Virus record (IMG/VR): IMGVR_UViG_3300011008_000010
Coordinates: 64,001-128,000 of that record
Origin: a virus
Lineage: Duplodnaviria > Caudoviricetes
Reading direction: 5' to 3' (one strand)
DNA: 64,000 bases
The translations under genes were made by a program, and so were the position numbers. This document shows positions 2,500 to 17,460 of the stretch, one piece after another. The notes under the pieces were generated by a model. That model was not told where the DNA came from. It worked only from the letters and a program-made list of their open reading frames with translations, and searched no databases. Within the stretch, counting starts at the first letter, position 1; the number at the start of each line of letters is the position of its first letter.

Positions 2500-5400
2500 A
2501 TGGCCAGTAATCAAGTAGAAAAAGTATTTAAATTCAGGGTTGATGTAGAGAATCCCTCGCAACAGTTTAAAAAGCTGTCACAAGAGGTTAAAAAACAAGT
2601 CGAACTATCAGCCACAGAAATAAAGATTCGCCCTGATGAAAATACAATTCCTGCTATCGCAAAAATACTTAGAGAAATTGAAGATAAGACAGGAATTACA
2701 ATTGACGTTGAAGCAAATTTGCAAAACGTTGAAAATCAGATTGCGAATTTAAAGAAACAGCTCAAAGATTTGAAATCTCCTTCTGAAATTGTTCCTAATA
2801 TGCGCAATATAGACAAGACGAATTATCTTAACGATCTTGCCAAAGACGCAAAGACGGCGAAGAAGGATGTTGAAGAACTTGGCAAAAAAGCGGAAGAAGC
2901 ATTTGCATCATTTGAGAGAAATAAAAATCGTAGAACTTATAGCGAATCATACAAAGAAGATTTGAAGAAGTTTCAGGAAGAATTTGTTCTTGAAACGAAA
3001 CTGTCTGATGTAAGAGATAAAGCTTTAGAGCAATTACAGGCTATTTCCAGTACGCCTGGTTGGGCTAACGAAGCTACAGAAGTGGCCAAGGTCATTGAAC
3101 TATTAAAGCAAGTTCAGTTGATTAACGAGAGAATCGTTGAACAACGGAAGAAAATGACTGAAGATCAGAAGCAGTTTTATAATGATAACGGTGTCACTAC
3201 AAATACAAAGATGCCTTCTGGTATAGATGCCAGTGCCGTATCTAAAAAGGTCGAACAAATTGCCAAAAGTTCCGATGGTCTTGTCGCATCTATTCAGGAG
3301 AATTTAAAGTCTCTACAAGCTGAAAAGAGAATGTTGGATGATCTTACAAAGTCCATGCAGGAATTTACAGCAGCGACAGATCAATCTGTTCAGACCGGTG
3401 GCAAAGGTGGTAGTGATACCGGGCTTGAGATATCTCCTACCGGATCAATTGATATCAGAGCGAATGCAAAGATTGAAATAACAGGACATGATGTAACGGT
3501 TATTCCGGAAAGTCCTGTTACTATTACCGGATCTAATGTCAGCATCGATATTGAAGCCGGTGCGTTCAATGGATTGAAAACTAAATCTTTGCAGAACGCA
3601 ATCGATATGATCAAGCAGATTGACGCTGCTATTAAGAACCATCAGACAATGACTCCTGAGATTAAAGAGGGGTCGTTAAAAATCGAGAGCGTAATACCTA
3701 AGAAGGTCAGCACGCTTACTATACCGGTTAAATTAGGTAAGTTGTCAGCAGAGAAGGTTAATAATTTTGTTGCAACTGCAAGTACAGAAGTTGCCGGTAT
3801 GGGAGCTGCCGTATTGATGAATACGGGGCTTAGAGATATAGCAAAAAAGGAAATTAATCGAGTAATTTCCGATACTAATAAAAAGGCAAAAACCGCTACA
3901 ACCAAGGTTAAGTTGGAAGCAGAACTTGTACTTGGCAAAGGAACGAGTGAAAAGGTTTCTGGAATTGAAGAAAAGGTCGGCTCTCTAACCGAGTCATTTG
4001 CTAATCTTCCAAGTACAATAACCGGTTCTGCCACAGAGAGTGTTCGTGCACTTGAAGAACTTAGAAAAATTATCGCCGATATTGACGAGAAGGTAAAAGA
4101 TATATCTAATGTCAAAATTACGCTTAGACATACCTCTCAGAAAGATGGCGGTAGTAGTAGTAGAAGTTCTTCTGGTAGTGGCACATCTTCTATTTCTGGC
4201 GGTCAGATGTCGAAGTTGTCTTCTTATGTAAAAGGAGTTTCAATTCCTAATACATCGGAACTTGATATAAAAGAATTAAGGCTTATATATCTTGAGCTCA
4301 TGAAGATATACGGACTTGCTGAAAAGATTCCGAAGGCAATGTTCGGCGAAGGCGAGAACTATATTAATTTTTCGAAAGAGCGTCTTGTTGCAGAAATAGA
4401 GGCTCTTCAACAGAGAGATGCTGTTCTAAAGGAAGAACAGAAAGTCGAAAAGGCGGTAAATGATTATCTCAAAAAGCAGATTTCGCTTCGTAACGAATTA
4501 GGAAAGAAGCAACAGGATCTTCGAGAGAAAATGGCCGAGATGTATAACGGCCTTTTCTATGGAGATGAGAATGCTAGAGACAGTCTAAACAATCTGCTTG
4601 AATCAATTGATCTCGATAAAATGATGTCGGATGGGAATCTTGACGTTGCCAAGAAAGTTCTTGGCGATGTTGCTTCTATTGTAAAGGAGATCCAGGATTC
4701 TAACAAAAAAGGTGCCACGGAAGCCAATAAAGCCCTCGAAGAAGCCGTCGAGAAAAGCAAACAGCAGCTTGAACTTGCCAAGCAGAGACGCGAACTCGAA
4801 GAAAAGATAACAAACATGAAGTCTGCGGTAGGATCTAATGACGATGAGTTCTATTCGAAGACCATAAACGAAATAGAGTCCGCGTTTAAGAAAATTGACG
4901 ATCACGGTCTTGCCGATAACATTGGCATCGAAAAGAGTAAACTTGATGAGATTAGTGAAGGATATAAGAATGTCACTAATATGATTAATTCTGCTTATGA
5001 CGCAGAGTTAAAAAGAGAAAAGGCGGCAGATGAGTCCTTTAAATTCCAACAGCAAATAATCAATCAACAAAATAATCTTCTAAAAGAAAAAGCAGAGCTT
5101 GAGCAGAAAATCCAGAAGATGTATGAGGATGGAATTGTTCGGGCAGAGAAGCTAAGAGACGTTGAAGAAGAACTTGCTAAGATTGATATTTCAAGCCCTT
5201 ATGATACTAATGGCAAAGCAAATCCTCTTGGCGGGGATGTTTTAAATAATTATGGGCAATCGCTTGACAACATAAGAAAGAATCTCGTAAATCTTGAAGC
5301 GCAAGAAAAGAAGGAGCTTGATGGCAGAAAGAAATTAGCCGGTTTCCTGCTAAACGAAAAAGAACTTCGTGAAAAGATTGCAGAGTTAAGAACTTATGGC

Positions 5401-6543
5401 AGTACGGATAAAGAACAGCTTGATAAGTTAGAGCAAGAGCTGAATACTTTTAATCTTGATAAGCTTGCAGAAAAAGCAGAGGCTCCTGCCAGAAAAGCAA
5501 TTGACGAGATTACTGTCGGACTTGGCAAGGTTAGAAAAGAACTTTTTGAAATTGAAAAAGCTACTATCAAACCGGCCAGTGCCTTAAAAGATCTTGGTAA
5601 GAAACTAAGAAGTTTTACCGGAACGCAAGAATGGCGCGACACATCTGATGCAAATATTGGCCTTAATTATATTGGATCAGAAGAGCAGCTTGCCAAAATA
5701 AGAGCTGCACGTCAGGAAATTGCACAGCTTGTTGAAACTGTCGGCAATATCAGCAAAGAATTCACCAAAGAAGAAGCCGAGAAGTTTACAAAGCAATATG
5801 AGAATGCAATCAGTAAGTTTGAAAATGCCGTAAGAAATGTTCAGAGAAAGACGGCTAAGAGCGGGAATGTTACTGTTCTTGGTACGGACACGTTGCATCA
5901 AGTTCAGGAAGTTGAAGATGCTATTAAACGCATTAATGAAATAGGTGCAAATGCTAATATTCAATGGACCACAAAAACAACCGGCGACATTACAAGGCTT
6001 ACCGGTGTTCTTACTGAAAATGATGGTACGGTAAAGACTCTTGTATATGATTACAATAATCTTACTACAGAGTTGTCTGAAGTAAGCGTCACAGAAAAGC
6101 AAACTGAAACATTTATGCAGCGCATAACAAAGTTGCTTCGCCAGAGAAGCGATGCTTTGATTGCGTACATTGGTACGTTCGCAAGTTTCTATCAAGTTAT
6201 GGGGAAACTTCGTGAAGGTGCTACTATTATCAAACAATTAGATACAAACATGACGGAGCTTCGTCGTGTTAGCGGTGCGACCAGAGGAGAATTGGAAGCT
6301 TTTAAGAGCACCGTTTTTGATATCGGTAGAGAAATTGGTTCTGCCGGAGATACAATTATAAAGCTTGCAGCAGATTATGCAAGACTTGGTTATTCATTAA
6401 GTGAAGCAAGCGAACTCGCTAAAGCATCTGCAATGTATATGAATGTAGGTTTTATTGATGATGCGACTTTTGCTATGGAAAGTTTAACATCGACGATGAA
6501 AGCTTACGGGATGCAAGCGAGTGAAGTTGCAGATATTGTTGAT
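2500..6543 (+). CDS. tape measure protein, exon 1 (1348 aa)
   Basis: Long helical ORF ending in the TP901-type TMP core (LDTNMTELRRV...ADYARLGYS...EVADIVD); core continues in later exons. Confidence 0.9.
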
Positions 6544-7053
6544 TAGAGTCGTTATCATATTGAAATAGATAACGATATATAGTTAGTCTATAGAGAAATC
6601 CGTAGATAGCGCGTTAAACGCCAACAAAGAAACTGAATTGCTGGGATACCGTAAAACTAATAGAACTACAACATAGGGATGAAACAAACTCAAGTGTGAA
6701 TGTGGCGAAAGCAGAAAAAATCTATTAGATGGCACATGGTTAAATCCTAAATGCTTCTACAAGAAATTGGTAATCAGCAGCCAAGCTCCGAACAGGAGAA
6801 GGTTCAACGACTATCCCTCGTGAGGGGAGTACACGCAAGCGCGTGGAAGTGGTTTCGCCTAAACGTATCGTAAGGTACGCATGGATAAGATATAGTCTGT
6901 GCCTTACTGAAAGGTAAGGAAGTTCATAAGAGAACTGCATGAGAAGTAGCGAGCTTATGTGAACGACGCCTCTAAAACGGCTAAAGTTGTGTGGTAATTA
7001 ACAAGTGGTTGTTACCGCTATGCATATGTAAAATTTTTAATATGTTTTTTTGC

Positions 7054-7083
7054 TTGACTTATTAGGGATAAATGCAGCATAAT
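7054..7083 (+). promoter_or_regulatory. sigma70-type promoter for tnpB inside intron 1
   Basis: TTGACT-N18-CATAAT, ending 46 nt upstream of the tnpB ATG. Confidence 0.5.
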
Positions 7084-7129
7084 ATTTATCGTGTAGTGGA
7101 TATATAATTTATTTATAGGTTTTGCGCAT

Positions 7130-8227
7130 ATGATTAAATCATATAGATTTAGACTTTATCCCAATAAAAGTCAAAGAGAACTTATGGCTCAAACATTTGG
7201 TAATTGCAGATTTGTCTATAATTATTATTTGGATAAAAGAATAAAATACTATGAAGAAACCAAAGAAACGTTTGGGTTTTATCAATGTTGCAAAGATTTA
7301 ACAGAATTAAAGAAGAAGTATGAATGGCTTCAAATATCCGATAAATGGGCTTTGCAAAACACATTGAAAGATTTGGACTTTGCGTTTAAAAATTTCTTTA
7401 GAAATAATGGTTATGGATATCCTCGGTTTAAATCAAAGAAAACACATAGATATTCTTATAAAACTACTTTTACAAATAATAATATAAAATGGTCGAAATC
7501 TGCAATTAGACTCCCAAAATTAGGTTGGGTTAAAGTAAGAGACAAACAAATACCACAAGGCAGAATTCTTAATGCTACGGTAAAACATGAACCATCTGGA
7601 AAATATTATTGTTGTATTTGTTGTACGGATGTTGAAATATCTCAACTTCCAAAAACGGGTTTAAACATTGGAATGGATTTAGGCCTTAAAGAATTTGCAG
7701 TTACCAATGACGGAACGAAGATAAATAATCCTAAGCACCTAGATAAGTCACTAAAGAAGCTTGTTAAATTGCAGCGAGAACTAGACCGAAAGACAAGGAA
7801 TAGCAATCGTTGGAATAAGCAAAGAATTAAAGTGGCTAGAATGTACGAGCGGATTACGAATCAAAGAAAAGATTTCTTGCAAAAATTATCCACGCAGATA
7901 ATATCAGACTATGACATTGTATGTCTTGAAAAATTAGACATACAAGAAATGATTGAACGTGCTGATTTTTCAAGAAGTATATTTGACGTATCATGGAACA
8001 TGTTTGTTCGAATGCTCGGATATAAAGCCGAATGGTACGGTAAAAAGGTGGTTAGGGTTGATAGATGGTACGCCAGTTCGCAAATTTGTTCGTGTTGTGG
8101 GCATGTTTACAAAAAGACAAAAAGTTTGTTAGTTCGGGAATGGACGTGTCTTAAATGTAAAACTCATCACGACAGAGATGTGAACGCTGCAAAAAACATA
8201 TTAAAAGAAGGGCTTCGAATAGCCTAA
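7130..8227 (+). CDS. tnpB: RNA-guided endonuclease TnpB (IS200/IS605 family)
   Basis: N-term YRFRLYP..FGNCRFVYN; RuvC GMDLG, CLEKL, DRDVNAA; CxxC..CxxC zinc ribbon; catalytic D/E/D intact. Confidence 0.95.
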   Translation: MIKSYRFRLYPNKSQRELMAQTFGNCRFVYNYYLDKRIKYYEETKETFGFYQCCKDLTELKKKYEWLQISDKWALQNTLKDLDFAFKNFFRNNGYGYPRFKSKKTHRYSYKTTFTNNNIKWSKSAIRLPKLGWVKVRDKQIPQGRILNATVKHEPSGKYYCCICCTDVEISQLPKTGLNIGMDLGLKEFAVTNDGTKINNPKHLDKSLKKLVKLQRELDRKTRNSNRWNKQRIKVARMYERITNQRKDFLQKLSTQIISDYDIVCLEKLDIQEMIERADFSRSIFDVSWNMFVRMLGYKAEWYGKKVVRVDRWYASSQICSCCGHVYKKTKSLLVREWTCLKCKTHHDRDVNAAKNILKEGLRIA

Positions 8228-8347
8228 TGTATGTATAGCGGTAGGAACTACCGTGTTAGCTCGTGGAGAAAGTAGGTAACGAAATCTGTGAAACGAGAAT
8301 CCGCAACTTTAGTTGTGTGAGGTTCAGAAGTTTAATGAAGTGGGTAA
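8228..8347 (+). ncRNA. TnpB omegaRNA 3' scaffold plus guide (guide about 8328-8347)
   Basis: GCGGTAGGAACTACCGT hairpin, CTCGT/ACGAG pairing, GAATCCGCAACTTTAGTTGTG end hairpin, then flanking guide; the 5' end probably overlaps tnpB. Confidence 0.75.
8328..8345 (+). CDS. tape measure protein, micro-exon 2 (KFNEVG)
   Basis: AAG TTT AAT GAA GTG GGT restores the conserved TMP motif DKFNEVGNNFAISS. Confidence 0.9.
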
Positions 8348-8656
8348 ATTGTTGCCCTTGAATGGCTATATCGGTCAAAGGGTGGGGACACCAGAGACCG
8401 AGCAAAGACTTAATATATTGCCGAAATGTGCTTAAAGAAAATGCGTTGAGGATAAACAATATGTTATGGATGCGTAACGACTGCGATATGGTATGTGGCA
8501 ACACATATTGTTAAGCCTATCCATGCGTAATAAGCTATCGCATGTAATATACAGTCTGAACTACCGCTATAATCCAAATAATTATGAAACGGTAGAGTAA
8601 GGCCGAAAGACCTTGCCGCCACAGAAATGTGGTCATAAAAGCAACAGTTAAATTTG
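8346..8656 (+). ncRNA. group I intron 2 (ORF-less, 311 nt)
   Basis: P1 GGGU/GCCC with U.G wobble; P10 AAATTGTT pairs with exon 3 AACAATTT; P7 GACTG 8479 / CAGTC 8552; terminal G. Confidence 0.85.
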
Positions 8657-8839
8657 AACAATTTTGCAATTAGCTCTGAAGGCATCGGTGAAGCCTTACA
8701 GAGATCTGCTGCTGCGCTTGCACAAGCAAACAATGATTTAGACAAGAGCATCGCTCTTGTTGTGGCTGCTAATGACGTTGTGCAGAATCCTGAAACAGTT
8801 GGTACTGCACTGCGCACGGTGGCTCTTCGCATAAGGGGT
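8657..8839 (+). CDS. tape measure protein, exon 3 (61 aa)
   Basis: NNFAISSEGIGEALQRSAAAL...QNPETVGTALRTVALRIRG, conserved TMP core; 183 nt in frame. Confidence 0.9.
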
Positions 8840-9165
8840 AACACATGTTATTTTATTTTGTGCCCATCCAGAGAGAAATCCTGGTCTGCGTTGCGAATAA
8901 TAAATTACGCAGCATGATCGCTATATCGGTCAAAGGGATAACGGTATCCAGAGACCGACGTAACCCATAGTGGGGTACGCTACAGACTGCCAGATCTATA
9001 TGGCAACATATAGGTTTAAGCGATCTCGCTCTCCTATTCTGGAAACGATGATATACAGTCGGAACTCACGCTATAACCGTAATTAATGAAACGTGAGAGA
9101 TAGCCAGAAATGACTATCCGCCCGCAAGGGTCAGTAGCTTTAATCCAGGCGAAAGTAACAGAGTG
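8840..9165 (+). ncRNA. group I intron 3 (ORF-less, 326 nt)
   Basis: Exon ends GGT, GCCC internal guide; shares GCTATATCGGTCAAAGGG, CCAGAGACCGA and GACTG/ATATACAGTC with intron 2; terminal G; splicing gives RIRG|AKADLEELGED. Confidence 0.85.
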
Positions 9166-12100
9166 GCAAAAGCGGATTTAGAAGAGTTAGGTGAAGACAC
9201 GGATGGATTAGCTAGCTCTGTATCGTCTTTAAGAGCAGAGGTTCTGGCACTTTCTGGTGTTGACATCATGATTGATGACAACACATTTAAAGATACTTAC
9301 AACATTCTAAAAGAACTTGCCTACGTATGGCATGATTTGACGGATGTTTCCCAAGCAGCTCTCTTAGAAAAGCTTGGTGGCAAACGTGGTGCTAACGTAA
9401 TCGCATCTATCCTTAGTAATGTAAACGATCTTGAGGCGGCTTATGCAGCCGCTGCTAATGCTGCCGGTTCTGCATCGGCAGAAAATTTAAAGTATCTAGA
9501 AAGTATCGAAGGTAAATTATCTCAACTCTCTGCTTCCTGGCAGGAGTTTTGGGATTCTTCATTTTTAAACAGCGTATTTAAAACCGGAATAAATTTATTA
9601 AATGGATTTGTTCAGATCTTAAATGATGCTGGCGGCATAGATTTTGCCATCACGCTCGCTGGCGTTGTTGGTTTGACACAGGCTATTAAACGGCTTGGTG
9701 GTTTTACCGGCAAGATAACAGAATTATATAACTCCTTTAAAGATTTCAGGGCGCTCATGAAAGATAATAATCTGAATTGGGCCGGTCTTTTTAAAGGGAG
9801 TTTCGTCAACGAGAAAGATATTAAAAAGAATGTAGAAAAAGTTGTTGGCAGTGCTTTCTCAACATACAATCAGGTATTTAATGCCGGTGGTGGTACTCAG
9901 GAAGCTGCTGCAAAAGCAAGTAGTGCGGCTTTAGCAGATCTCGTAAAAAATCAGGATCTATTGGCAAAATCATCCAGCGATTTAACTAAGTCTATGATTG
10001 AACGGGCTGCTCAAGAAGGTACGAACATAACGCTTGAACAGCAAGAAGCGAAGACAGTAGAAGTTCTGAACAATGAACTTGAGACTGGCGGAAAGAACAG
10101 TGCTCAATTTGCTAAAGGTCAAGCGGCAATGAAGAGTGCTATTGCTGCTATTGCTGTTATTGGCGTTTCTCTTGCCATTAATGCTATCAGCGCCTACATT
10201 CGAAAACAGGACGAATTAAGAGAGAAAATTATTGAGAACGGTAAAACGCAAGTAAAGCAAGCACGTAGTTTGCGTGATGCCGTTAATAGTTTTGATAAGA
10301 TCAATGCCGACTATAAGACCGGTGCGGCGACATCAGACGAATTAAGAAATGCTATTGAAGGCGTAAACGAAGCTCTCGGAGATCAAAAAGAATTATTAGC
10401 CGGTGTTTCGTCTGGCAGTGATACTTGGAGAAAGCGTCTCGATGAATTAATCGAGAAACAGAATGAGGTTGCTAAGAACGCGGCTCGTTCTGCGTTGTAC
10501 AATGCATCTAAGAAAAGTGCGACAGATACGGTCAAAGGTATTGGCTGGAGCATTGCCAAATACTGGACTTCTTCTTGGGGAGGTATGTTGCCGATTGGCA
10601 ACCTCCTTAAAGACGTAAATCCGATCTCTAAATTTTTTGGAAATAAGAAGGATCTTACCAATCGATCTTCTCAAATTAAGGCATTAAAGGAATGGCAGGA
10701 TGAGTTAAAAGAACTCGAAGAAGAATATAAAGAACTTGAAAAAGCCCAAGAAGAGGCTATGTCGGAAAATAATGGTGCTGCACTAAAGACCAATCCGATA
10801 AAGGTTCTTCTTGGTTGGCAAACGGATTATGCGAAAGAACTTGATAAGAATCAGAAGAAACAAGACGAGTTAATCAAGAATATTGCTCAATATAATGATT
10901 CTGTTCAAGAGACGGCTCAGGCAGCAGCATATCTTGTTTGGGAAGACAGTATTAAAGATATAGATAATGCGGCTGACAAATACAAAAAATTAGATAAAGC
11001 CGTAGAGGATGTAATTAGGACATTTGGACTTGCCGATGACGAAGAAGGCATCAAAGCCGCCAAAGAAATGATTCTGAGTTTCATGGAAATGGATTCGGAA
11101 TCTGCTGGGTTTATGGCTCTTAAAAAGGGAGCCGAGGATGCATCTAAAGCAATTGGTGCTGCAAGCGTTTCCGTAGAAGGACTGTTAGAAGCGTTTGATA
11201 AAGGAGATCTGACCGAACAAGACATTTTTGATCTTAGCGATGAAAGATTTAAGAATTATGTAGAGCAGAACCAACTTTATATTAAGAGTGTAGAGCAAGC
11301 TATCGAAACGCTTCATGCTTGGAAAGATGAAGTCAGAGCCGAGGCGAAAGAAACCAATACGCTTGTTGGTGTTATTAGGGACTCTAAAGATGCCATAGAT
11401 GATTTCCAGTCTGCTATATCGAAACTTGGTGCTATAATGAAAGCCGATTATTCGAATAACGCTTCTGGTATGATCGATGATCTGCAAGATCTAATCGACG
11501 TTATCAGTGGGATGGATACCAAAGTATCCGAGCAATTATTCGATAAGTTAAATAGTGCGTATAGCGTAGAAGCTCTTTCGTCTGCAATGAAGAAGGCCTC
11601 CGAAGAGGCAATGAAATTTAAATTAGATGGCTTAATTGATTCGTTAAATCTTGCAAATCCTGCATTGGAAAAGATGCTTCGTCTTCTTGTTGAACAGGAA
11701 AAACAAGTAGAAGCAATTACATCTGATTTAGATTCGTTTAAATCTGCTTATCAGAACCTTATTGGGGTGGTAAAAGAATACAATGAAAACGGATTTTTAA
11801 CGGCGGATAATATTAACACCATTCTGTCGATGAGTCCGGAGTATTTGGCTGCTCTTGATTATGAAGGTAATAAGCTAAAGTTAAATGAAGAAGCGTTAAA
11901 GAAAATTGTCCTTGTTCGATTGGAAGAAGCAAAGAGGCAAATTGAGTCTAATAGACATACTCAATTGTCTGCAATATATGCAGAACAAGAAGCGAGGGCA
12001 AAGCAAAAGTCTGCCGAATTAACATATGAACATGCGACAGCATTGTTACAAGAAGCAATTGCAGCAGGAAAATCTGAAACAGAAATACTGAAACTTGAGA

Positions 12101-15100
12101 AGCAAGTTTATAAACTGTATGAAGCACAACAAAAATTACAGGGTGTAGAGTTTTCGGGTACGCTAGATTCAGATTTGCAAGAGCAAGCAGATGCAGTAAA
12201 TGAAACTGCCGATGCTGCGATTGATAGTATTGATCATGTCATAGACGAGTTTGAAAACGGATCTATGGATGCGCTCAATACATTTCTCGGTGTTACAGAT
12301 GACATTGAAAAAGATGCCGAGGATGCCGCAGAAGAACTTAAATCTCAGATAGACTCCGTTCTTTCTAAGTGGAAATCTGCGCTGGATTCCGGTGCGATTA
12401 ACTATAAGCAATATCTGGACAAAATGAAGTCCATGCGCAATCAGTATGCAGATCAGTTAAATACCGAAGATTTGCTGCAAATGGATGTAGATATTGCCCA
12501 GGAAGAACAGAATATGTGGAAGGAGGCTATGGACGCTGCCGGTAGATATATTGACCGGGAGATGAAGAAGCCTATTGAAGATCGTATCACCGCATTAAAT
12601 TCTGAGAAAGATGCATTAGAAAGAAATAAGGATGCCATCAGTGATTACTATGATGGTATCATTGATGGTTTTGAGAAACAAAAGGAAGCTGTTGAAAATC
12701 AGATTGACGCTGTTGAGAAAGCGTATGAAGCTCAGATTAAGCCTCTTGAGAATCAGCAGAAGGCAATCAATAAGCAAATTAAGGCTATTGAAAAGCAGAA
12801 GCAAGTTATTGAGGATGAGATAAAGGTTCTTGAAAGATCTAAACGGCCTTATGAAAAACAACAAAAGGCTATTGATAAAGAAATTAAAGCGATTGAGCGT
12901 GAAATTTCTGTTATTGAAAAATCCAAGAAACCTTATGAGCAGAAACAAAAGGCATTAGAAAAGGAAATCAAGGCAATTGAAAAGCAGATTGATATCCTTG
13001 AACGCTCCAAGCGTCCTTATGAAGATCAACAGAAGGCGATAAACAAGGAAATCAAGGCGATTGAAAAAGAGATCAACGCTCTTGAAAAGACTAAAAAGCC
13101 TTATGAGAAGCAACAGAAGGCTATTGCAAAGCAAGTTAAGGCAATACAACGGCAGATCGATGCGCTTGAAGATACAAAACGTCCTTACGAAGATCAGCAA
13201 AAGGCAATTGACAAGCAAGTCAAGGCAATTAATAAACAGATTAAGGCTTTAGAGAAATCCAAAAAGCCTTATGAAGATCAGCAAAAGGCTATTGACAAGC
13301 AATCAAAGGCAATTCAGAAGCAGATAAATGCTTTGGAAAAGTCTAAAAAGCCCTACGAAGATCAACAGAAGGCGATAAGCAAAGAAATCAAGTCTATCGA
13401 AAAGCAGATTAAGGCGATACAGGATACTGAAAAGCCCTATAAAGAAGAACAAGAATCAATCGAGAAGTCTATTCGTGCGATTGAGCAGAAAATTAAAGCG
13501 TTTGAAAAACTGCAACAGCCATATAAAGAACAGCTTGATCTTGTTAATAAGGAAGTTGCCGCTCTTGAGAGAGAAATTGAACTTATGGAGCGGTCAAAAC
13601 GATCTTATGAACAACGACGTGATGCAGTTCAAAATGAAATTGATGCTCTGGAATATCAGATGTCTGTTATTGGCAGACAGGAAACTGCGTATAAGCGCGA
13701 ACAAGACGCTCTGAATAAAGACATTGAACTTCTTGAGCGCCAGGTTTCTATCCTTGAATATAGGAAGAAGCCTTATGAAATTGCACAAAGACAAATTGAA
13801 AGACAGATTGGTCTTTTGCAGCAAGAGCAGAAAGAACTTGAGAAATTAAAAGAGCCTTACGAAGAAGAGATTAAAGCCTTAGAGAAAGAGCTTGAGGCTA
13901 TGCAGGAAGCCAATGAAGAACGGCAAGCTGCACTTGATCTTCAACAGGCAGAATATAATCTCAGGAGAGCACAGCAGCAAAGAACCAATTATGTTTATCA
14001 GGATGGACAGTTCCAGTATATTGCAGATCAGACAGCTATTAAAGATGCTCAAAAGACGATAGATGATCTCAAATACGAGGAATCTGTAAAACGCGTTGAA
14101 AAGGCAATTGATAGGTTACAGGATAAGATTGACGAGATTACCGCTCAGAGCGATGCTATCCAAAAAGATATCGATGAACTGACAGATAAAAACGATCAAC
14201 TTGCCGAAAGCATTCAGCGCATACAGGATGAAATAGATCCTATTCAGGACGATATAGATGAGCTGACGTTTAAAGCAGAAGAATTACAGTGGTCTATAAA
14301 TGACATTGAGTATTCGATGACAAGTATCCAGTATGCCATCGAAGACTTAGAGGCTGCAAACGAAGATTTGGAAGAATCAATCCGACAGATTGACGAAGCT
14401 ATTCAGCCTTTACAGTATAGGCTTGATTCATTAAAAGATACTGCTTCTGACTTGCAATGGGAAATCGACAAGATACAGCAATACATCGATCCGTTAAATA
14501 CAGAGATCGAAGGGTTGAATGATACGATTTCTGAACTTCAGCTTATTATTGATGAAATCGAAGAATCAATTGATCCGCTTAATGAAAAGATCGACGAGCT
14601 GAATGAGCACAATGATTTATTACAGGAATCTATCGATGCTATAACAGACGCGATTGAACCGTTAAACGAACAAATTGACGAGTTAGCGGAACAGTCAGAT
14701 TTAATACAGGAAAAGATTGACGAAATTAATGATGCGATTGATCCTCTTAATGATCAGATTGATGATCTGAATGAACAAGGGGATGAATTGCAAGAAATGA
14801 TCGATTCTATCGGCGAATCTATTGATGAGCTAAGTCGTCAAATAGATGATCTGAATAGGCAGAGCGATTTTATACAGGATATTATCGATGAAATCGATGA
14901 GGCTATTGAGCCTCTCGAAGAACATTTAGACGAACTGAATGAAAAGAGCGAAGAGCTTCAAGAGCAAATAGATGCAATTGATGAAGCAATCGAACCTTTG
15001 CAGAGAACAATCGACGAGTTAAACGATCAGATTAGTGATTTGCAGGATGTTATCGATGCTATCGATGAATCTATGGAGCCGCTTCAGGAAAGAATCGAAG

Positions 15101-17460
15101 CACTTAATGAAGAGAGCGAAGAACTTCAGCAGACTATCGATGAAATCGATGAGGCCATTGAAGAACTGAACTATCAGCTCGAACCGTTAAACGACGAGAT
15201 TGATCTTCTTAACAGGCAGAACGATGAACTTAGCGAATCAATAGAAGAACTCAGAGAACAACAGGAGTTGGAAGTTGAAGCGTTACAGGCTCAGAGCGAC
15301 GCTATAAGCGAACAGATTGATTATTATCAGCAGTTAAAAGAACAGGCAGAAGAATCGATCCAGGCTCAGATAGATAAAATCGATGAACATATCGATGCGT
15401 TGGATAAGGAAATCGAAGGTATCGAAGCATATAAAGATCAGCTCACGAGCATCTTTGATGAAATTGATGCAAGAAAAGACGAAGATCTTCTTACTACGTT
15501 ATTCGGTGAAGGATGGCAAGAGAAACTACAATCATTAGATCCTCAGATTATAGCTGATTTTGCTGCTGGATATGAAGATTCTACGGAAAGATTAAAGGAA
15601 GCGAATCAGGTAGTCATTGATTCGTTAGAAGGACCAGATGGTCTTGGACAGGCAGCGGAAGAAACCGAACAAGACGTGTCTGAATTAAAAGATACGATGG
15701 CCAATGCCGATGAAGCAATAGGCGAAGGATCGATTAAGGATGCTATGGATCAGACTGCTGTATCTGCTGAAGATATGGCAGAAAGTTTTGTTAAAGTTAG
15801 AGACAACATTGACGAAGTAATTGATGCTATTGGAAGGCTTTGGGAACAGCGTGGGACTTTTAATGAAATTGGAGGCATGATAGATGTCTACCTGATTCAA
15901 AAGTTCCATGAAACCAAAGAAGCTATTGATCCTACTTTAATTGATACAATTGGTTTGCTGTGGGATGCCGTTCGTGTCAACAGCGTGATGATTGGCGATG
16001 CCATCGAGAATAACATATTAGGTGCTCTAAAGGATATTGAGGAATTCTTGAATAAGAATATTCCCGAAGCATCTGATTATGCAAAACAAGAGGTGATCAA
16101 AGATATTGAAGAGATCGTCTCTTTTATGACTGATCGTGCGCAGCCTGGTTTATTAACTGCAATCGATACGATCAAAGAAGAGGCAATCAACGCTTCCGAT
16201 GAAATTGTTCGTGAAGTTGAAGACGATATAGATCAGATCGTTAGTTATGCGGAAGATCCTGGTAAAGCACAGCTTGTTGCTACGGCAGAGCAGACAAGGA
16301 TTGATATTTCTGAGATTTCAGATGATCTTGTGGATGATATCGAAGATGATGTTAGAGAAATCTGTGAGGTTATTGTTCCTAATGGTCTTAGAGAATGCGA
16401 AAAAGAGATACAAGATTCCGTTGATAATGTAATTATTCCTAAATTAAGGGATATAAAAGACGAGATCGACGAAATTGTTAGTGCTGCTTTAGAAGCAATG
16501 CAAACTGTTTCTGAAATGGGTATGACAATTGCCAATGCAATTAATGAGGTTGCACAAAATATTAGCAATGTTATTAGTGGTATTGAGGAATCAATTAATA
16601 ATACCTATGAAAATCTCACAAAAGAAGGCGGTCTAATACAAAAGCTACATGAGGCGGCAGAAGCTGCTGCTCAGATCCCTGGATATGGTGTTGCTCAACC
16701 AGATCAAACTCAGGATGATGGCGGTGGCGGTGATCAGAATAACAATTATGATAATAACAACGGTGGTGGTGACAATAATTATGATGTTCAGTCTGCCGAA
16801 GTTCAAACAGATCAGTTTGTTGTTCAGAATGCCAATATTGAAATGACAACATCTGAAGGTAAGCGAGATGGATATCAAACTTACCGGATGGGCGAAAAGA
16901 GCATTTCTTATCAAAGATATAAGACCGAGGCTGGAAAAGAAGAAATTGAAAAATGGAGAGCGCAAGGTTACGACATCAGAGTAACATCTGGAGTTGGTGG
17001 TCGAACACTCTTCACTGTTGATCGCTATGGCAAAGGTGGGTATGTTGCAACTGAAAAGTTAAAGACGCCACTTACCAATTTGGCCAATGCTGTTGGCGAA
17101 GATAAGATGGTCGCCGTACAAGAAGGCGAACGCATCCTTACTCCTACTCAAAATAGGGATTTTGAAGAATTTGTCAGATTAACACCTGAGTTAATTAGTG
17201 CAACTGAAAGTCTTGCAAAATATGCAAAATTATTCGAAGACATTTCCACTATGGATTCGATGGCGTCAGAAGCAGGCATGATGCGTGGTGTCAATGGTGT
17301 TGTGGACAGAGCAAATGCTGCTCCTGTTACGAATAATACTATGTCGCTTAATATCGGTGATATCCATGTGCATGAAGCTAAGAATGCTGACGACCTTGCA
17401 AGACAGATTAAGAACAATTTGCCTAACTCTTTGATTCAGGCGTTAGGTAGAGCAAGTTAA
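9166..17460 (+). CDS. tape measure protein, exon 4 (2764 aa)
   Basis: Continues the TMP core (KDTYNILKELA..LLEKLGGKRGANV), hydrophobic segments, coiled-coil repeats, C-terminal VQEGERILTP motif. Confidence 0.9.
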   Translation, partial: AKADLEELGEDTDGLASSVSSLRAEVLALSGVDIMIDDNTFKDTYNILKELAYVWHDLTDVSQAALLEKLGGKRGANVIASILSNVNDLEAAYAAAANAAGSASAENLKYLESIEGKLSQLSASWQEFWDSSFLNSVFKTGINLLNGFVQILNDAGGIDFAITLAGVVGLTQAIKRLGGFTGKITELYNSFKDFRALMKDNNLNWAGLFKGSFVNEKDIKKNVEKVVGSAFSTYNQVFNAGGGTQEAAAKASSAALADLVKNQDLLAKSSSDLTKSMIERAAQEGTNITLEQQEAKTVEVLNNELETGGKNSAQFAKGQAAMKSAIAAIAVIGVSLAINAISAYIRKQDELREKIIENGKTQVKQARSLRDAVNSFDKINADYKTGAATSDELRNAIEGVNEALGDQKELLAGVSSGSDTWRKRLDELIEKQNEVAKNAARSALYNASKKSATDTVKGIGWSIAKYWTSSWGGMLPIGNLLKDVNPISKFFGNKKDLTNRSSQIKALKEWQDELKELEEEYKELEKAQEEAMSENNGAALKTNPIKVLLGWQTDYAKELDKNQKKQDELIKNIAQYNDSVQETAQAAAYLVWEDSIKDIDNAADKYKKLDKAVEDVIRTFGLADDEEGIKAAKEMILSFMEMDSESAGFMALKKGAEDASKAIGAASVSVEGLLEAFDKGDLTEQDIFDLSDERFKNYVEQNQLYIKSVEQAIETLHAWKDEVRAEAKETNTLVGVIRDSKDAIDDFQSAISKLGAIMKADYSNNASGMIDDLQDLIDVISGMDTKVSEQLFDKLNSAYSVEALSSAMKKASEEAMKFKLDGLIDSLNLANPALEKMLRLLVEQEKQVEAITSDLDSFKSAYQNLIGVVKEYNENGFLTADNINTILSMSPEYLAALDYEGNKLKLNEEALKKIVLVRLEEAKRQIESNRHTQLSAIYAEQEARAKQKSAELTYEHATALLQEAIAAGKSETEILKLEKQVYKLYEAQQKLQGVEFSGTLDSDLQEQADAVNETADAAIDSIDHVIDEFENGSMDALNTFLGVTDDIEKDAEDAAEELKSQIDSVLSKWKSALDSGAINYKQYLDKMKSMRNQYADQLNTEDLLQMDVDIAQEEQNMWKEAMDAAGRYIDREMKKPIEDRITALNSEKDALERNKDAISDYYDGIIDGFEKQKEAVENQIDAVEKAYEAQIKPLENQQKAINKQIKAIEKQKQVIEDEIKVLERSKRPYEKQQKAIDKEIKAIEREISVIEKSKKPYEQKQKALEKEIKAIEKQIDILERSKRPYEDQQKAINKEIKAIEKEINALEKTKKPYEKQQKAIAKQVKAIQRQIDALEDTKRPYEDQQKAIDKQVKAINKQIKALEKSKKPYEDQQKAIDKQSKAIQKQINALEKSKKPYEDQQKAISKEIKSIEKQIKAIQDTEKPYKEEQESIEKSIRAIEQKIKAFEKLQQPYKEQLDLVNKEVAALEREIELMERSKRSYEQRRDAVQNEIDALEYQMSVIGRQETAYKREQDALNKDIELLERQVSILEYRKKPYEIAQRQIERQIGLLQQEQKELEKLKEPYEEEIKALEKELEAMQEANEERQAALDLQQAEYNLRRAQQQRTNYVYQDGQFQYIADQTAIKDAQKTIDDLKYEESVKRVEKAIDRLQDKIDEITAQSDAIQKDIDELTDKNDQLAESIQRIQDEIDPIQDDIDELTFKAEELQWSINDIEYSMTSIQYAIEDLEAANEDLEESIRQIDEAIQPLQYRLDSLKDTASDLQWEIDKIQQYIDPLNTEIEGLNDTISELQLIIDEIEESIDPLNEKIDELNEHNDLLQESIDAITDAIEPLNEQIDELAEQSDLIQEKIDEINDAIDPLNDQIDDLNEQGDELQEMIDSIGESIDELSRQIDDLNRQSDFIQDIIDEIDEAIEPLEEHLDELNEKSEELQEQIDAIDEAIEPLQRTIDELNDQISDLQDVIDAIDESMEPLQERIEALNEESEELQQTIDEIDEAIEELNYQLEPLNDEIDLLNRQNDELSESIEELREQQELEVEALQAQSDAISEQIDYYQQLKEQAEESIQAQIDKIDEHIDALDKEIEGIEAYKDQLTSIFDEIDARKDEDLLTTLFGEGWQEKLQSLDPQIIADFAAGYEDSTERLKEANQVVIDSLEGPDGLGQAAEETEQDVSELKDTMANADEAIGEGSIKDAMDQTAVSAEDMAESFVKVRDNIDEVIDAIGRLWEQRGTFNEIGGMIDVYLIQKFHETKEAIDPTLIDTIGLLWDAVRVNSVMIGDAIENNILGALKDIEEFLNKNIPEASDYAKQEVIKDIEEIVSFMTDRAQPGLLTAIDTIKEEAINASDEIVREVEDDIDQIVSYAEDPGKAQLVATAEQTRIDISEISDDLVDDIEDDVREICEVIVPNGLRECEKEIQDSVDNVIIPKLRDIKDEIDEIVSAALEAMQTVSEMGMTIANAINEVAQNISNVISGIEESINNTYENLTKEGGLIQKLHEAAEAAAQIPGYGVAQPDQTQDDGGGGDQNNNYDNNNGGGDNNYDVQSAEVQTDQFVVQNANIEMTTSEGKRDGYQTYRMGEKSISYQRYKTEAGKEEIEKWRAQGYDIRVTSGVGGRTLFTVDRYGKGGYVATEKLKTPLTNLANAVGEDKMVAVQEGERILTPTQNRDFEEFVRLTPELISATESLAKYAKLFEDISTMDSMASEAGMMRGVNGVVDRANAAPVTNNTMSLNIGDIHVHEAKNADDLARQIKNNLPNSLIQALGRAS
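12739..13900 (+). repeat. basic 28-aa (84-nt) coiled-coil repeats, about 14 units
   Basis: K(K/R)PYExQQKAIxKxIKAIEKxIxxLEKS periodicity. Confidence 0.85.
14150..15240 (+). repeat. acidic 28-aa coiled-coil repeats, about 13 units
   Basis: (D/E)PLNxxIDELNxxxxxLQExIDxIDEAI periodicity. Confidence 0.85.

What the first reader, a model, noticed from the sequence alone, without database searches (positions are those of the whole stretch)
6539..8347. Phage IStron whose TnpB guide is the next micro-exon: RNA-guided intron homing
Seen: the intron begins right after TTGAT, holds an intact tnpB with its own promoter and omegaRNA, has no tnpA, and its splice-site G coincides with the IS right end (TTCAG). 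Known: TTGAT is the target/TAM of ISDra2 and the C. difficile IStron, and TnpB guides come from right-flank sequence. Inference: guide AAGTTTAATGAAGTGGGTAA plus the TAM reconstitutes the intron-less TMP allele. TnpB would then act as a homing endonuclease and as a weapon against co-infecting relatives. The first 20 guide nt match whether or not intron 2 is present, because both intron 2 and exon 3 start with AA.
Basis: partly seen in the sequence, partly recalled or inferred. Interest (0 to 1): 0.88.

Follow-up and report, generated by a model that had tools for sequence, protein, structure and literature searches.

The report
TnpB IStron in phage tape-measure gene
A known kind of selfish element, a self-splicing intron carrying an RNA-guided nuclease (an "IStron"), sits in the tail tape-measure gene of an uncultured large phage. 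This copy has lost the left-end hairpin its transposase would need, and its guide exactly matches the uninterrupted gene of another phage, so RNA-guided homing or competitor-cutting is plausible but untested.

Summary
Window 6544-8327 is a 1,784-nt group A (IS200/IS605, CdISt1-like) IStron. It has a group I ribozyme (Rfam 65.9 bits), an intact 365-aa TnpB (ISDra2-like, E 1e-94) and a three-stem right end/omegaRNA, but no tnpA.

It follows TTGAT and ends TTCAG. Removing it and two further group I-like introns restores a 4,179-aa tape-measure protein that aligns across all junctions with 11 intron-less homologues. The 18-nt micro-exon is real and is the predicted guide.

The proposed mechanism is the published IStron/TnpB model. 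A 2026 review already suggests that tnpA-less IStrons spread by intron homing, and this scan has noted similar phage IStrons many times. It is therefore a new member of a known kind.

Three results add to that:
- All 23 relatives whose left end I could read (about 35 phage contigs carry intron core plus tnpB) keep the left-end TnpA hairpin; this copy alone lacks it.
- One phage contig (L080/L099) has a perfect TTGAT plus 21-nt target without the IStron. Its flanks are too diverged for easy homing, which favours cutting a competitor.
- The target is the nucleotide-conserved 5' flank of a widespread intron site.

Cleavage, omegaRNA ends and splicing are untested. The "own promoter" is only a consensus match.

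The parts
2500..6543 (+). Tape-measure exon 1 (1,348 codons), ending ..ATT GTT GAT
   Evidence: ORF list; Pfam PhageMin_Tail at its C-terminus; tblastn against intron-less TMPs
6539..6543 (+). TTGAT: predicted TnpB TAM, IS605 target pentanucleotide and 5' strand of intron helix P1 (5' splice site after U6543)
   Evidence: Sequence; TTGAT abuts 21 of 24 family members; literature PMC4227781 and 10.1101/2023.11.20.567912
6544..8327 (+). IStron (intron 1), 1,784 nt, single copy in the record
6549..6575 (+). Left-end stem (6549-6556 pairs with 6568-6575) with an 11-nt unstructured loop. Relatives carry the TnpA-type subterminal hairpin (..CTCGTGACTTTAGTCGTGAG..) inside this stem; here it is missing
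   Evidence: 17-nt gap in alignment A1; 23 of 23 relatives keep the hairpin; DNA folds of window versus L017
6582..6586 (+). Internal guide sequence GUUAG, pairing with exon UUGAU (U.G at the splice site)
   Evidence: By eye. Relative L037 has TTTAT paired with GTAAG, a compensatory change
6569..6919 (+). Group I ribozyme core (P2-P9)
   Evidence: Rfam RF00028, 65.9 bits, E 1.7e-14
7054..7083 (+). Sigma-70-like match TTGACT-18-CATAAT upstream of tnpB (weak)
   Evidence: 10 of 12; count not above shuffles; not conserved in L017
7130..8227 (+). tnpB, 365 aa, RuvC D183/E267/HDRD 347-350 and zinc-finger cysteines intact
   Evidence: dN about 0.2 with saturated dS against relatives
8239..8327 (+). 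Right end / predicted omegaRNA scaffold: SL1 8239-8253, SL2 8260-8297, SL3 8301-8318, then GAGGTTCAG. G8327 is the 3' splice-site G and the IS right boundary
   Evidence: 42-sequence alignment and consensus fold: 25 pairs, 14 with compensatory changes; three consecutive stem-loops as described for omegaRNAs (10.1101/2023.11.20.567912)
8328..8345 (+). Micro-exon 2 (18 nt, KFNEVG): predicted TnpB guide, and its GGGU is also the 5' strand of intron 2's P1
   Evidence: unique in the record
8346..8656 (+). Intron 2, group I-like, no ORF. P1 GGGU/GCCC, P10 AACAA/UUGUU, P7 and J8/7 motifs
   Evidence: and sequence; no Rfam hit at E<=1; homologues at the same TMP site in 21 viral contigs
8657..8839 (+). 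Exon 3 (61 codons, NNFAISSEGIGEAL..RIRG)
8840..9165 (+). Intron 3, related to intron 2. P1 GGGU/GCCC, P10 GCAAAA/UUUUGU
   Evidence: and sequence; homologue at the same site in L080
9166..17460 (+). Exon 4 (2,764 codons plus stop); the spliced TMP is 4,179 aa with no stop

Best explanation
This is a non-autonomous group A (IS200/IS605-type, CdISt1-like) IStron fixed in the tape-measure gene of an uncultured large phage.

**Shown by sequence and comparison**
- A group I ribozyme occupies the 5' part, followed by an intact ISDra2-like tnpB.
- The right end has three conserved stem-loops and stops at TTCAG.
- The element sits directly after TTGAT.
- Its removal, together with two neighbouring group I-like introns, restores the tape-measure reading frame.
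- Unlike every relative examined, this copy has lost the left-end subterminal hairpin that the Y1 transposase TnpA binds, and the record holds no tnpA.

**Inferred mechanism**
1. The late tape-measure pre-mRNA mostly self-splices. P1 is formed by UUGAU and GUUAG, and the 3' splice site is G8327, so the essential protein is made.
2. A fraction of transcripts is bound by TnpB. The right end then serves as omegaRNA scaffold, and the 15-20 nt after it, the micro-exon, serve as guide.
3. The TnpB-omegaRNA complex cuts DNA that carries TTGAT followed by AAGTTTAATGAAGTGGG... That sequence is any IStron-free allele of this site, with or without intron 2.
4. The phage's own copy is spared because TTCAG replaces the TAM.
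5. In a co-infection, a close relative would repair the break from the IStron-bearing genome. That is homing, probably with co-conversion of introns 2 and 3.
6. A diverged phage such as L080/L099 would simply suffer a break in an essential gene.

Without a left-end hairpin, TnpA-mediated transposition is probably no longer open to this copy.
For: **Identity**
- Rfam group I hit.
- TnpB domains and ISDra2 homology with the catalytic residues intact.
- TTGAT and TCAG termini as defined for group A IStrons (PMC4227781).
- In-frame exon ligation validated against 11 intron-less TMPs.

**Family**
- The closest element, L017 (76% nt identity, TnpB 72%), is inserted after another TTGAT in a different coiled-coil gene.
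- 61 IMG/VR contigs share the right end. About 35 have both intron core and tnpB, and they sit in portal, terminase and TMP genes.
- Two relatives (L052, L045) still carry an intact 136-aa Y1 TnpA.

**omegaRNA**
- Three stem-loops with 14 covarying pairs and a sharp loss of conservation after TTCAG.
- The window's SL3 carries its own compensatory G-C to A-U change.

**Left-end loss**
- Alignment A1, 23 of 23 relatives and the DNA folds.

**Target in nature**
- L080/L099 has ATTGTTGAT+AAGTTTAATGAAGTGGGTAAA with no IStron.
- The guide occurs only once in the own record.
- No TAM-flanked match exists in 185,579 prokaryote genomes.

**Selection and precedent**
- TnpB shows dN about 0.2 with saturated dS.
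- The mechanism has precedent: TnpB homing and the conflict between omegaRNA and splicing in IStrons (10.1101/2023.11.20.567912), and homing of tnpA-less IStrons has been proposed (PMC13565253).
Against: - There are no RNA or activity data, so omegaRNA ends, TAM, cleavage and splicing are all inferred.
- No IStron-free version of this same phage, and no second phage with the IStron at this site, was found. These would be the signature of recent homing.
- The one perfect target lies in a phage whose flanks are only 42-55% identical. Homologous repair from this genome is therefore unlikely, and a shared host is unknown.
- Fifteen other alleles with TTGAT carry two guide mismatches, one at guide position 3, which probably blocks cleavage (seed sensitivity is from my own knowledge of ISDra2 TnpB).
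- Retention of the last right-end stem could reflect splicing needs rather than TnpB, since SL5 is essential for splicing in CboIStron (10.1101/2023.11.20.567912).
- Purifying selection on tnpB cannot be dated to after the left-end loss.
- The record is 77% complete, so a tnpA elsewhere is not excluded.
Confidence: 0.6

Rival explanations
1. Stranded relic. The IStron arrived by TnpA acting in trans and then lost its left-end hairpin. It now persists only because the ribozyme must splice to keep the essential tape-measure gene working. TnpB and the omegaRNA have no present role and have not yet decayed.
For: - Left-end hairpin lost and no tnpA in the record.
- No polymorphic or occupied sister alleles were found.
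- The promoter-like site is not conserved.
- The right-end stems may be kept for splicing (10.1101/2023.11.20.567912).
Against: - The tnpB ORF is full length with all catalytic and zinc residues.
- All three omegaRNA stems are intact, and SL3 carries a lineage-specific compensatory pair.
- The review notes that disruption of TnpB alone has not been observed in IStrons (PMC13565253), which suggests TnpB is generally retained.
Confidence: 0.25
2. Regulator of splicing. TnpB binding to the right end mainly tunes when and how much tape-measure mRNA is spliced. DNA cleavage is secondary.
For: In CboIStron, TnpB binding represses splicing whether or not the nuclease is active (10.1101/2023.11.20.567912). 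Here the 3' splice site lies inside the omegaRNA.
Against: - The RuvC triad is retained, whereas known regulator derivatives of TnpB lose it (my own knowledge).
- There is no evidence that the phage benefits from this.
- Relatives sit in many unrelated genes, as expected of a selfish element rather than a regulator.
Confidence: 0.08
3. Still an ordinary mobilisable IS. A TnpA supplied by the host or another phage recognises the remaining left-end stem (6549-6575), and the element transposes as usual. TnpB then only restores excised copies.
For: The family clearly transposes, with different TTGAT sites in different genes. Autonomous members with TnpA exist in phages.
Against: The remaining stem (TCGTTATC/GATAACGA with an 11-nt loop) bears no resemblance to the right-end hairpin (GCAAC-TTTA-GTTGT). 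IS200/IS605 TnpA binds similar hairpins at both ends (PMC4227781; PMC6006769). All 23 relatives conserve the hairpin that is missing here.
Confidence: 0.07

Closest known systems
Group A IStrons: CdISt1 / CdiIStrons of Clostridioides difficile (Braun 2000; Tourasse 2014, PMC4227781; Zedaveinyte et al., 10.1101/2023.11.20.567912)
   Same: - Group I intron at the 5' part with an IS605-type tnpB.
- Insertion after TTGAT and a 3' end of TCAG.
- Splice sites coincide with the IS ends.
- The omegaRNA has three stem-loops and overlaps the intron 3' end.
- tnpA is often missing.
- C. difficile TnpB proteins are 55-57% identical to this one.
   Different: - Sits in an essential structural gene of a large uncultured phage rather than a bacterial chromosome.
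- No tnpA remnant.
- The left-end TnpA hairpin is deleted.
- Lies 18 nt upstream of another group I-like intron, so the guide is a micro-exon.
Group B (IS607-type) IStrons, including CbISt3/CbISt4 of C. botulinum phages c-st and D-1873, and CboIStron
   Same: They are phage-borne IStrons. For CboIStron, TnpB-omegaRNA cleavage of the empty site and the antagonism between TnpB and splicing have been shown experimentally.
   Different: They use a serine TnpA, a TGGG-type TAM and a CGG 3' end, and they represent an independent fusion event. The window element fails these group B features (TTGAT and TCAG).
ISDra2 TnpB-omegaRNA (PDB 8exa, 8h1j)
   Same: Homologous over residues 3-362 (E 1.2e-94). 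The TTGAT TAM is the same, and the guide is taken from the right flank.
   Different: ISDra2 has no intron, carries tnpA and both end hairpins, and has a longer C-terminal tail (408 aa against 365).
Homing-endonuclease group I introns of phages (T4 td/I-TevI; PhiPA3 gp210 intron, PMC11620839)
   Same: A self-splicing intron in an essential phage gene carries a nuclease predicted to cut the intron-less allele of co-infecting phages. The outcome is either homing or interference competition.
   Different: Here target recognition would be by RNA guide plus a 5-nt TAM rather than by protein. Activity has not been tested.

Membership tests
Group A (IS200/IS605-type) IStron | Group I ribozyme in the 5' part of the element | tested here: met
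   RF00028, 65.9 bits (gathering score 50) at 6569-6919
Group A (IS200/IS605-type) IStron | IS605-family tnpB (ORF B) downstream of the ribozyme | tested here: met
   Pfam PF12323, PF01385 and PF07282; ISDra2 TnpB E 1.2e-94
Group A (IS200/IS605-type) IStron | Inserted 3' of TTGAT/ATTAT/TTTAT, with a 3' terminus of TCAG | tested here: met
   TTGAT at 6539-6543 and TTCAG at 8323-8327; same in relatives
Group A (IS200/IS605-type) IStron | Splice sites coincide with the IS ends, so exon ligation restores the host gene | tested here: met
   In silico only. The spliced product aligns without gaps with 11 intron-less TMPs. Splicing itself was not assayed
Group A (IS200/IS605-type) IStron | Subterminal hairpins at both ends for the Y1 transposase | tested here: not met
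   The right-end hairpin is present. The left-end hairpin is absent, although 23 of 23 relatives have it. This makes the copy a degenerate or derived member; it does not argue against common descent (76% nt identity to L017)
Group A (IS200/IS605-type) IStron | tnpA (ORF A) or its remnant | tested here: not met
   No PF01797 match in the 137.8-kb record. Only 200 nt lie between the ribozyme and tnpB. Described family members also often lack intact tnpA (PMC4227781; 10.1101/2023.11.20.567912)
TnpB-omegaRNA (OMEGA) nuclease | RuvC D-E-D triad and zinc-finger cysteines | tested here: met
   D183, E267, HDRD 347-350, CSCC 320-323 and CLKC 340-343
TnpB-omegaRNA (OMEGA) nuclease | Structured scaffold RNA at the tnpB 3' end and right end, followed by a variable guide | tested here: met
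   Three stem-loops, 14 covarying pairs, and conservation ending at TTCAG. Part of the invariant sequence was fixed by my search pattern
TnpB-omegaRNA (OMEGA) nuclease | RNA-guided, TAM-dependent DNA cleavage | not testable with these tools
   Needs a plasmid-interference or in vitro assay
Group B (IS607-type) IStron | GG-ending target (TGGG), CGG 3' end, serine TnpA | tested here: not met
   The termini are TTGAT and TCAG

The most novel reading that the evidence does not exclude
This copy may be a natural example of an IStron that has given up transposition altogether: no tnpA and no left-end hairpin. It would then survive as a purely RNA-guided homing intron and anti-competitor nuclease of a phage. 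Its guide is aimed at the nucleotide-conserved 5' flank of a widespread tape-measure intron site. The predicted cut site next to two ORF-less introns would let all three introns spread together by co-conversion.
Probability: 0.3. Interest if true: 0.7.

Novelty: new member of a known kind. Interest (0 to 1): 0.45.

Why it matters
IStrons and TnpB homing are established. The idea that tnpA-less IStrons spread by intron homing between co-infecting phages or plasmids is already in print as a hypothesis (PMC13565253).

This locus offers a concrete test case:
- an intact TnpB and omegaRNA whose transposase route appears closed, because the left-end hairpin is deleted;
- a defined 18-nt guide;
- a natural, perfectly matching IStron-free target in another phage.

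The comparison also shows that IS605-type IStrons are common in packaging and tail genes of large uncultured phages (about 35 IMG/VR contigs with intron core plus tnpB). The literature I could search mentions only the IS607-type copies of C. botulinum phages.

If cleavage is shown, it would extend RNA-guided nucleases to phage-versus-phage competition, in parallel with protein homing endonucleases.

Tried and rejected
- **Close relatives of this phage, to find its own empty allele.** Single-protein scans of IMG/VR with exon 1 and with TnpB found nothing. Exon 4 found only relatives at 38-45% identity. An exact empty-site scan of 241 million metagenome records found one contig, from a different phage.
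- **The same IStron at the same site in other phages.** None found.
- **A bacterial or prophage target of the guide.** There were 4 exact 20-mers in 596 Gb, none with TTGAT and all in unrelated contexts, so they are chance matches. The idea that the guide targets a host chromosome is rejected.
- **An Rfam family for the omegaRNA or for introns 2 and 3.** No hit at E<=1.
- **Introns 2 and 3 in the phage collection.** No blastn match.
- **A conserved tnpB promoter.** Not supported.
- **dN/dS to date selection after the left-end loss.** dS is saturated, so the test is uninformative for that question.
- **P10 for the IStron.** I found no convincing pairing with the micro-exon, as expected for an element that lands in arbitrary sites.
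- **An IStron in L080.** L080 has no tnpB. It has only another group I core further downstream.
Full report
**1. What is there**

The window is bases 64001-128000 of a 137,795-base IMG/VR virus record that is estimated 77% complete. A long ORF (2500-6546) ends in a stop immediately after ..ATT GTT GAT. A second long ORF resumes at 9163.

Between them lie:
- an Rfam group I intron hit at 6569-6919 (65.9 bits against a gathering score of 50);
- a 365-aa ORF at 7130-8227 with the three Pfam domains of IS605 OrfB/TnpB.

That protein aligns over residues 3-362 with the solved ISDra2 TnpB (8exa, 8h1j; E 1.2e-94). It keeps D183, E267, the HDRD motif at 347-350 and both CxxC pairs.

**2. Exon structure**

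I used the intron-less tape-measure protein of Brevibacillus phage Sundance as a ruler. This splits the gene into four exons:
- exon 1: 2500-6543;
- exon 2: 8328-8345;
- exon 3: 8657-8839;
- exon 4: 9166-17460.

The junction reads ..IVD|KFNEVG|NNFAISSEGIGEAL.., against ..IVDMFNEVGNNFAVSSEGIGEAL.. in Sundance. The spliced 4,179-aa product has no stop. Its central domain aligns without gaps across all three junctions with 11 intron-less homologues at 37-51% identity.

Introns 2 (8346-8656) and 3 (8840-9165) are related to each other. They give no Rfam hit at E<=1, but they have the hallmarks of group I introns:
- P1 is GGGU/GCCC, with U.G at the splice site;
- P10 is AACAA/UUGUU in intron 2 and GCAAAA/UUUUGU in intron 3;
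- a P7 helix and a J8/7-like AUAUACAGUC are present, and each intron ends in G (and the sequence).

It is also true that intron 2 and exon 3 both begin with AA.

Two short contigs from other samples reproduce 6920-8714 at 100% identity. The arrangement is not an assembly artefact.

**3. It is a group A IStron**

Tourasse et al. define group A IStrons by insertion after TTGAT, ATTAT or TTTAT and a 3' end of TCAG (PMC4227781). This element follows TTGAT and ends TTCAG.

The closest relative is L017/L018, with 76% DNA identity over 6579-8327 and a TnpB 72% identical. It sits after a different TTGAT in a different coiled-coil gene and ends with the same GAGGTTCAG. Clostridioides phage ES-S-0173-01 carries another copy.

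A scan of IMG/VR with a right-end pattern returned 61 contigs, many of 90-230 kb. About 35 of them have both a homologous intron core and tnpB. All those examined are flanked by open frames on both sides. The interrupted genes include:
- portal (L033);
- large terminase (L051);
- tape measure (L052, and probably L017).

Two relatives (L052, L045) still have an intact 136-aa Y1 TnpA just upstream of tnpB. The window's record has none.

**4. Right end and omegaRNA**

In an alignment of 42 distinct right ends, the consensus fold has three consecutive stem-loops. Fourteen of the 25 pairs show compensatory changes. Conservation ends exactly at TTCAG, and the following 20 nt share nothing.

This matches the published description of omegaRNA scaffolds, which have three stem-loops upstream of the guide and overlap the intron 3' end (10.1101/2023.11.20.567912).

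One caveat applies. GTAGGAACTA and CTTTAGTnnTGnGAGGTTCAG were fixed in my search pattern, so their invariance is by construction. The covariation lies elsewhere.

**5. Left end: the unusual part**

P1 appears to pair exon UUGAU with GUUAG at 6582-6586. The relative with TTTAT (L037) has GUAAG there, which is a compensatory change.

Between the splice site and this guide sequence, all 23 relatives carry an outer variable stem. That stem encloses a conserved hairpin (..CACTCGTGACTTTAGTCGTGAGT..), which resembles the right-end hairpin. This is the expected binding site of the IS200/IS605 transposase.

The window has the outer stem only (6549-6556 pairs with 6568-6575), closed by an 11-nt loop (alignment A1). 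The right-end hairpin is kept and even carries a lineage-specific compensatory pair (GCAAC/GUUGU against GCGAC/GUCGU).

I infer that this copy can no longer be mobilised by TnpA. That step is inference from the known requirement for both hairpins.

**6. The target**

TAM plus guide reconstitutes the IStron-free allele by construction. The guide occurs once in the phage record.

An exact search of the metagenome collection for GAT plus the 20-nt guide found one contig. This is L080, and the same 52,086-b contig appears as IMG/VR L099. It reads ATTGTTGAT|AAGTTTAATGAAGTGGGT|AAAGTG.., with no IStron and with homologues of introns 2 and 3 at the same positions.

That gives a perfect TTGAT plus 21-nt match. 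The identical block is 30 nt long, while the surrounding exon 1 is 42% identical, the intron 55% and exon 3 52%.

The other alleles found are:
- 15 viral contigs with TTGAT and two guide mismatches (positions 3 and 12, or 3 and 9);
- 5 contigs with TAGAT and four mismatches, all of these with an intron-2 homologue;
- 6 intron-less contigs with three or more mismatches.

None has the IStron at this site. Four exact 20-mers in prokaryote genomes lack the TAM and are chance matches.

The IStron's guide is therefore aimed at the nucleotide-conserved 5' flank of a widespread intron insertion site. Because L080's flanks are so diverged, cleavage there would more likely damage the competitor than convert it.

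**7. Mechanism and what is known**

Splice sites equal to the IS ends, the TAM as the P1 strand, the omegaRNA overlapping the 3' splice site, and TnpB cutting the empty site are the published model for IStrons (10.1101/2023.11.20.567912).

[quoted passage not shown] It also lists co-infecting phages as targets of non-restorative homing.

Phage-borne IStrons were known for C. botulinum phages c-st and D-1873, which are group B (PMC4227781). This scan has already logged many tnpA-less phage IStrons on other DNA.

The finding is therefore a new member of a known kind. Its particular value is as a test case: the left-end hairpin is lost, the guide is a micro-exon, and a natural perfect target exists.

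If the omegaRNA extends only about 15 nt past the intron (PMC13565253, Fig. 5 legend), the guide lies wholly in the micro-exon, and the AA coincidence is of little consequence.

**8. Limits**

- Nothing here shows RNA species, cleavage or splicing.
- The tnpB promoter is only a consensus match and is not conserved.
- TnpB is under purifying selection across the family (dN about 0.2, dS saturated), but this cannot be assigned to the time since the left-end loss.
- The host and the co-occurrence of the two phages are unknown.

Noticed in passing
window 8346-8656 and 8840-9165: Two related ORF-less group I-like introns with clear P1 (GGGU/GCCC), P10 and P7 get no Rfam RF00028 hit at E<=1 and no blastn match in the phage collection. 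They may belong to an intron lineage that the Rfam model covers poorly.
   Followed up: partly
L081-L101 (21 IMG/VR contigs) and L080: Homologues of intron 2 occupy exactly the same tape-measure site (after ..KFNEVG) in many uncultured phages. The 27 nt of exon upstream of the site are conserved at synonymous positions while the rest of the gene diverges, as at an intron homing site or co-conversion tract.
   Followed up: partly
L080:7087-7116 versus window 6535-6543+8328-8348: There is a 30-nt block of perfect identity (ATTGTTGAT+micro-exon+AAA) between two phages whose flanking sequences are only 42-55% identical. Its origin (conversion, selection, or a former IStron excision joint) is unexplained.
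   Followed up: partly
L019-L079 (IMG/VR): A large family of IS605-type IStrons occurs in big uncultured phages, interrupting portal (L033), terminase (L051) and tape-measure (L052) genes. Several identical guides recur on multiple contigs. L052 and L045 carry an intact Y1 tnpA, so they are autonomous phage-borne IStrons.
   Followed up: partly
L037 left end: This element is inserted after TTTAT instead of TTGAT and has GTAAG instead of GTCAG/GTTAG at the presumed internal guide sequence. That is a compensatory change supporting the pairing of TAM and P1.
   Followed up: no
L080:7100-9300: The tape-measure domain of this other phage also holds several introns (at least at the intron 2 and intron 3 sites, plus a further group I core at 9109-9227) but no tnpB.
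   Followed up: partly
window 2500-17460: The spliced tape-measure protein is 4,179 aa, which is unusually long. Exon 4 is dominated by coiled-coil matches.
   Followed up: no
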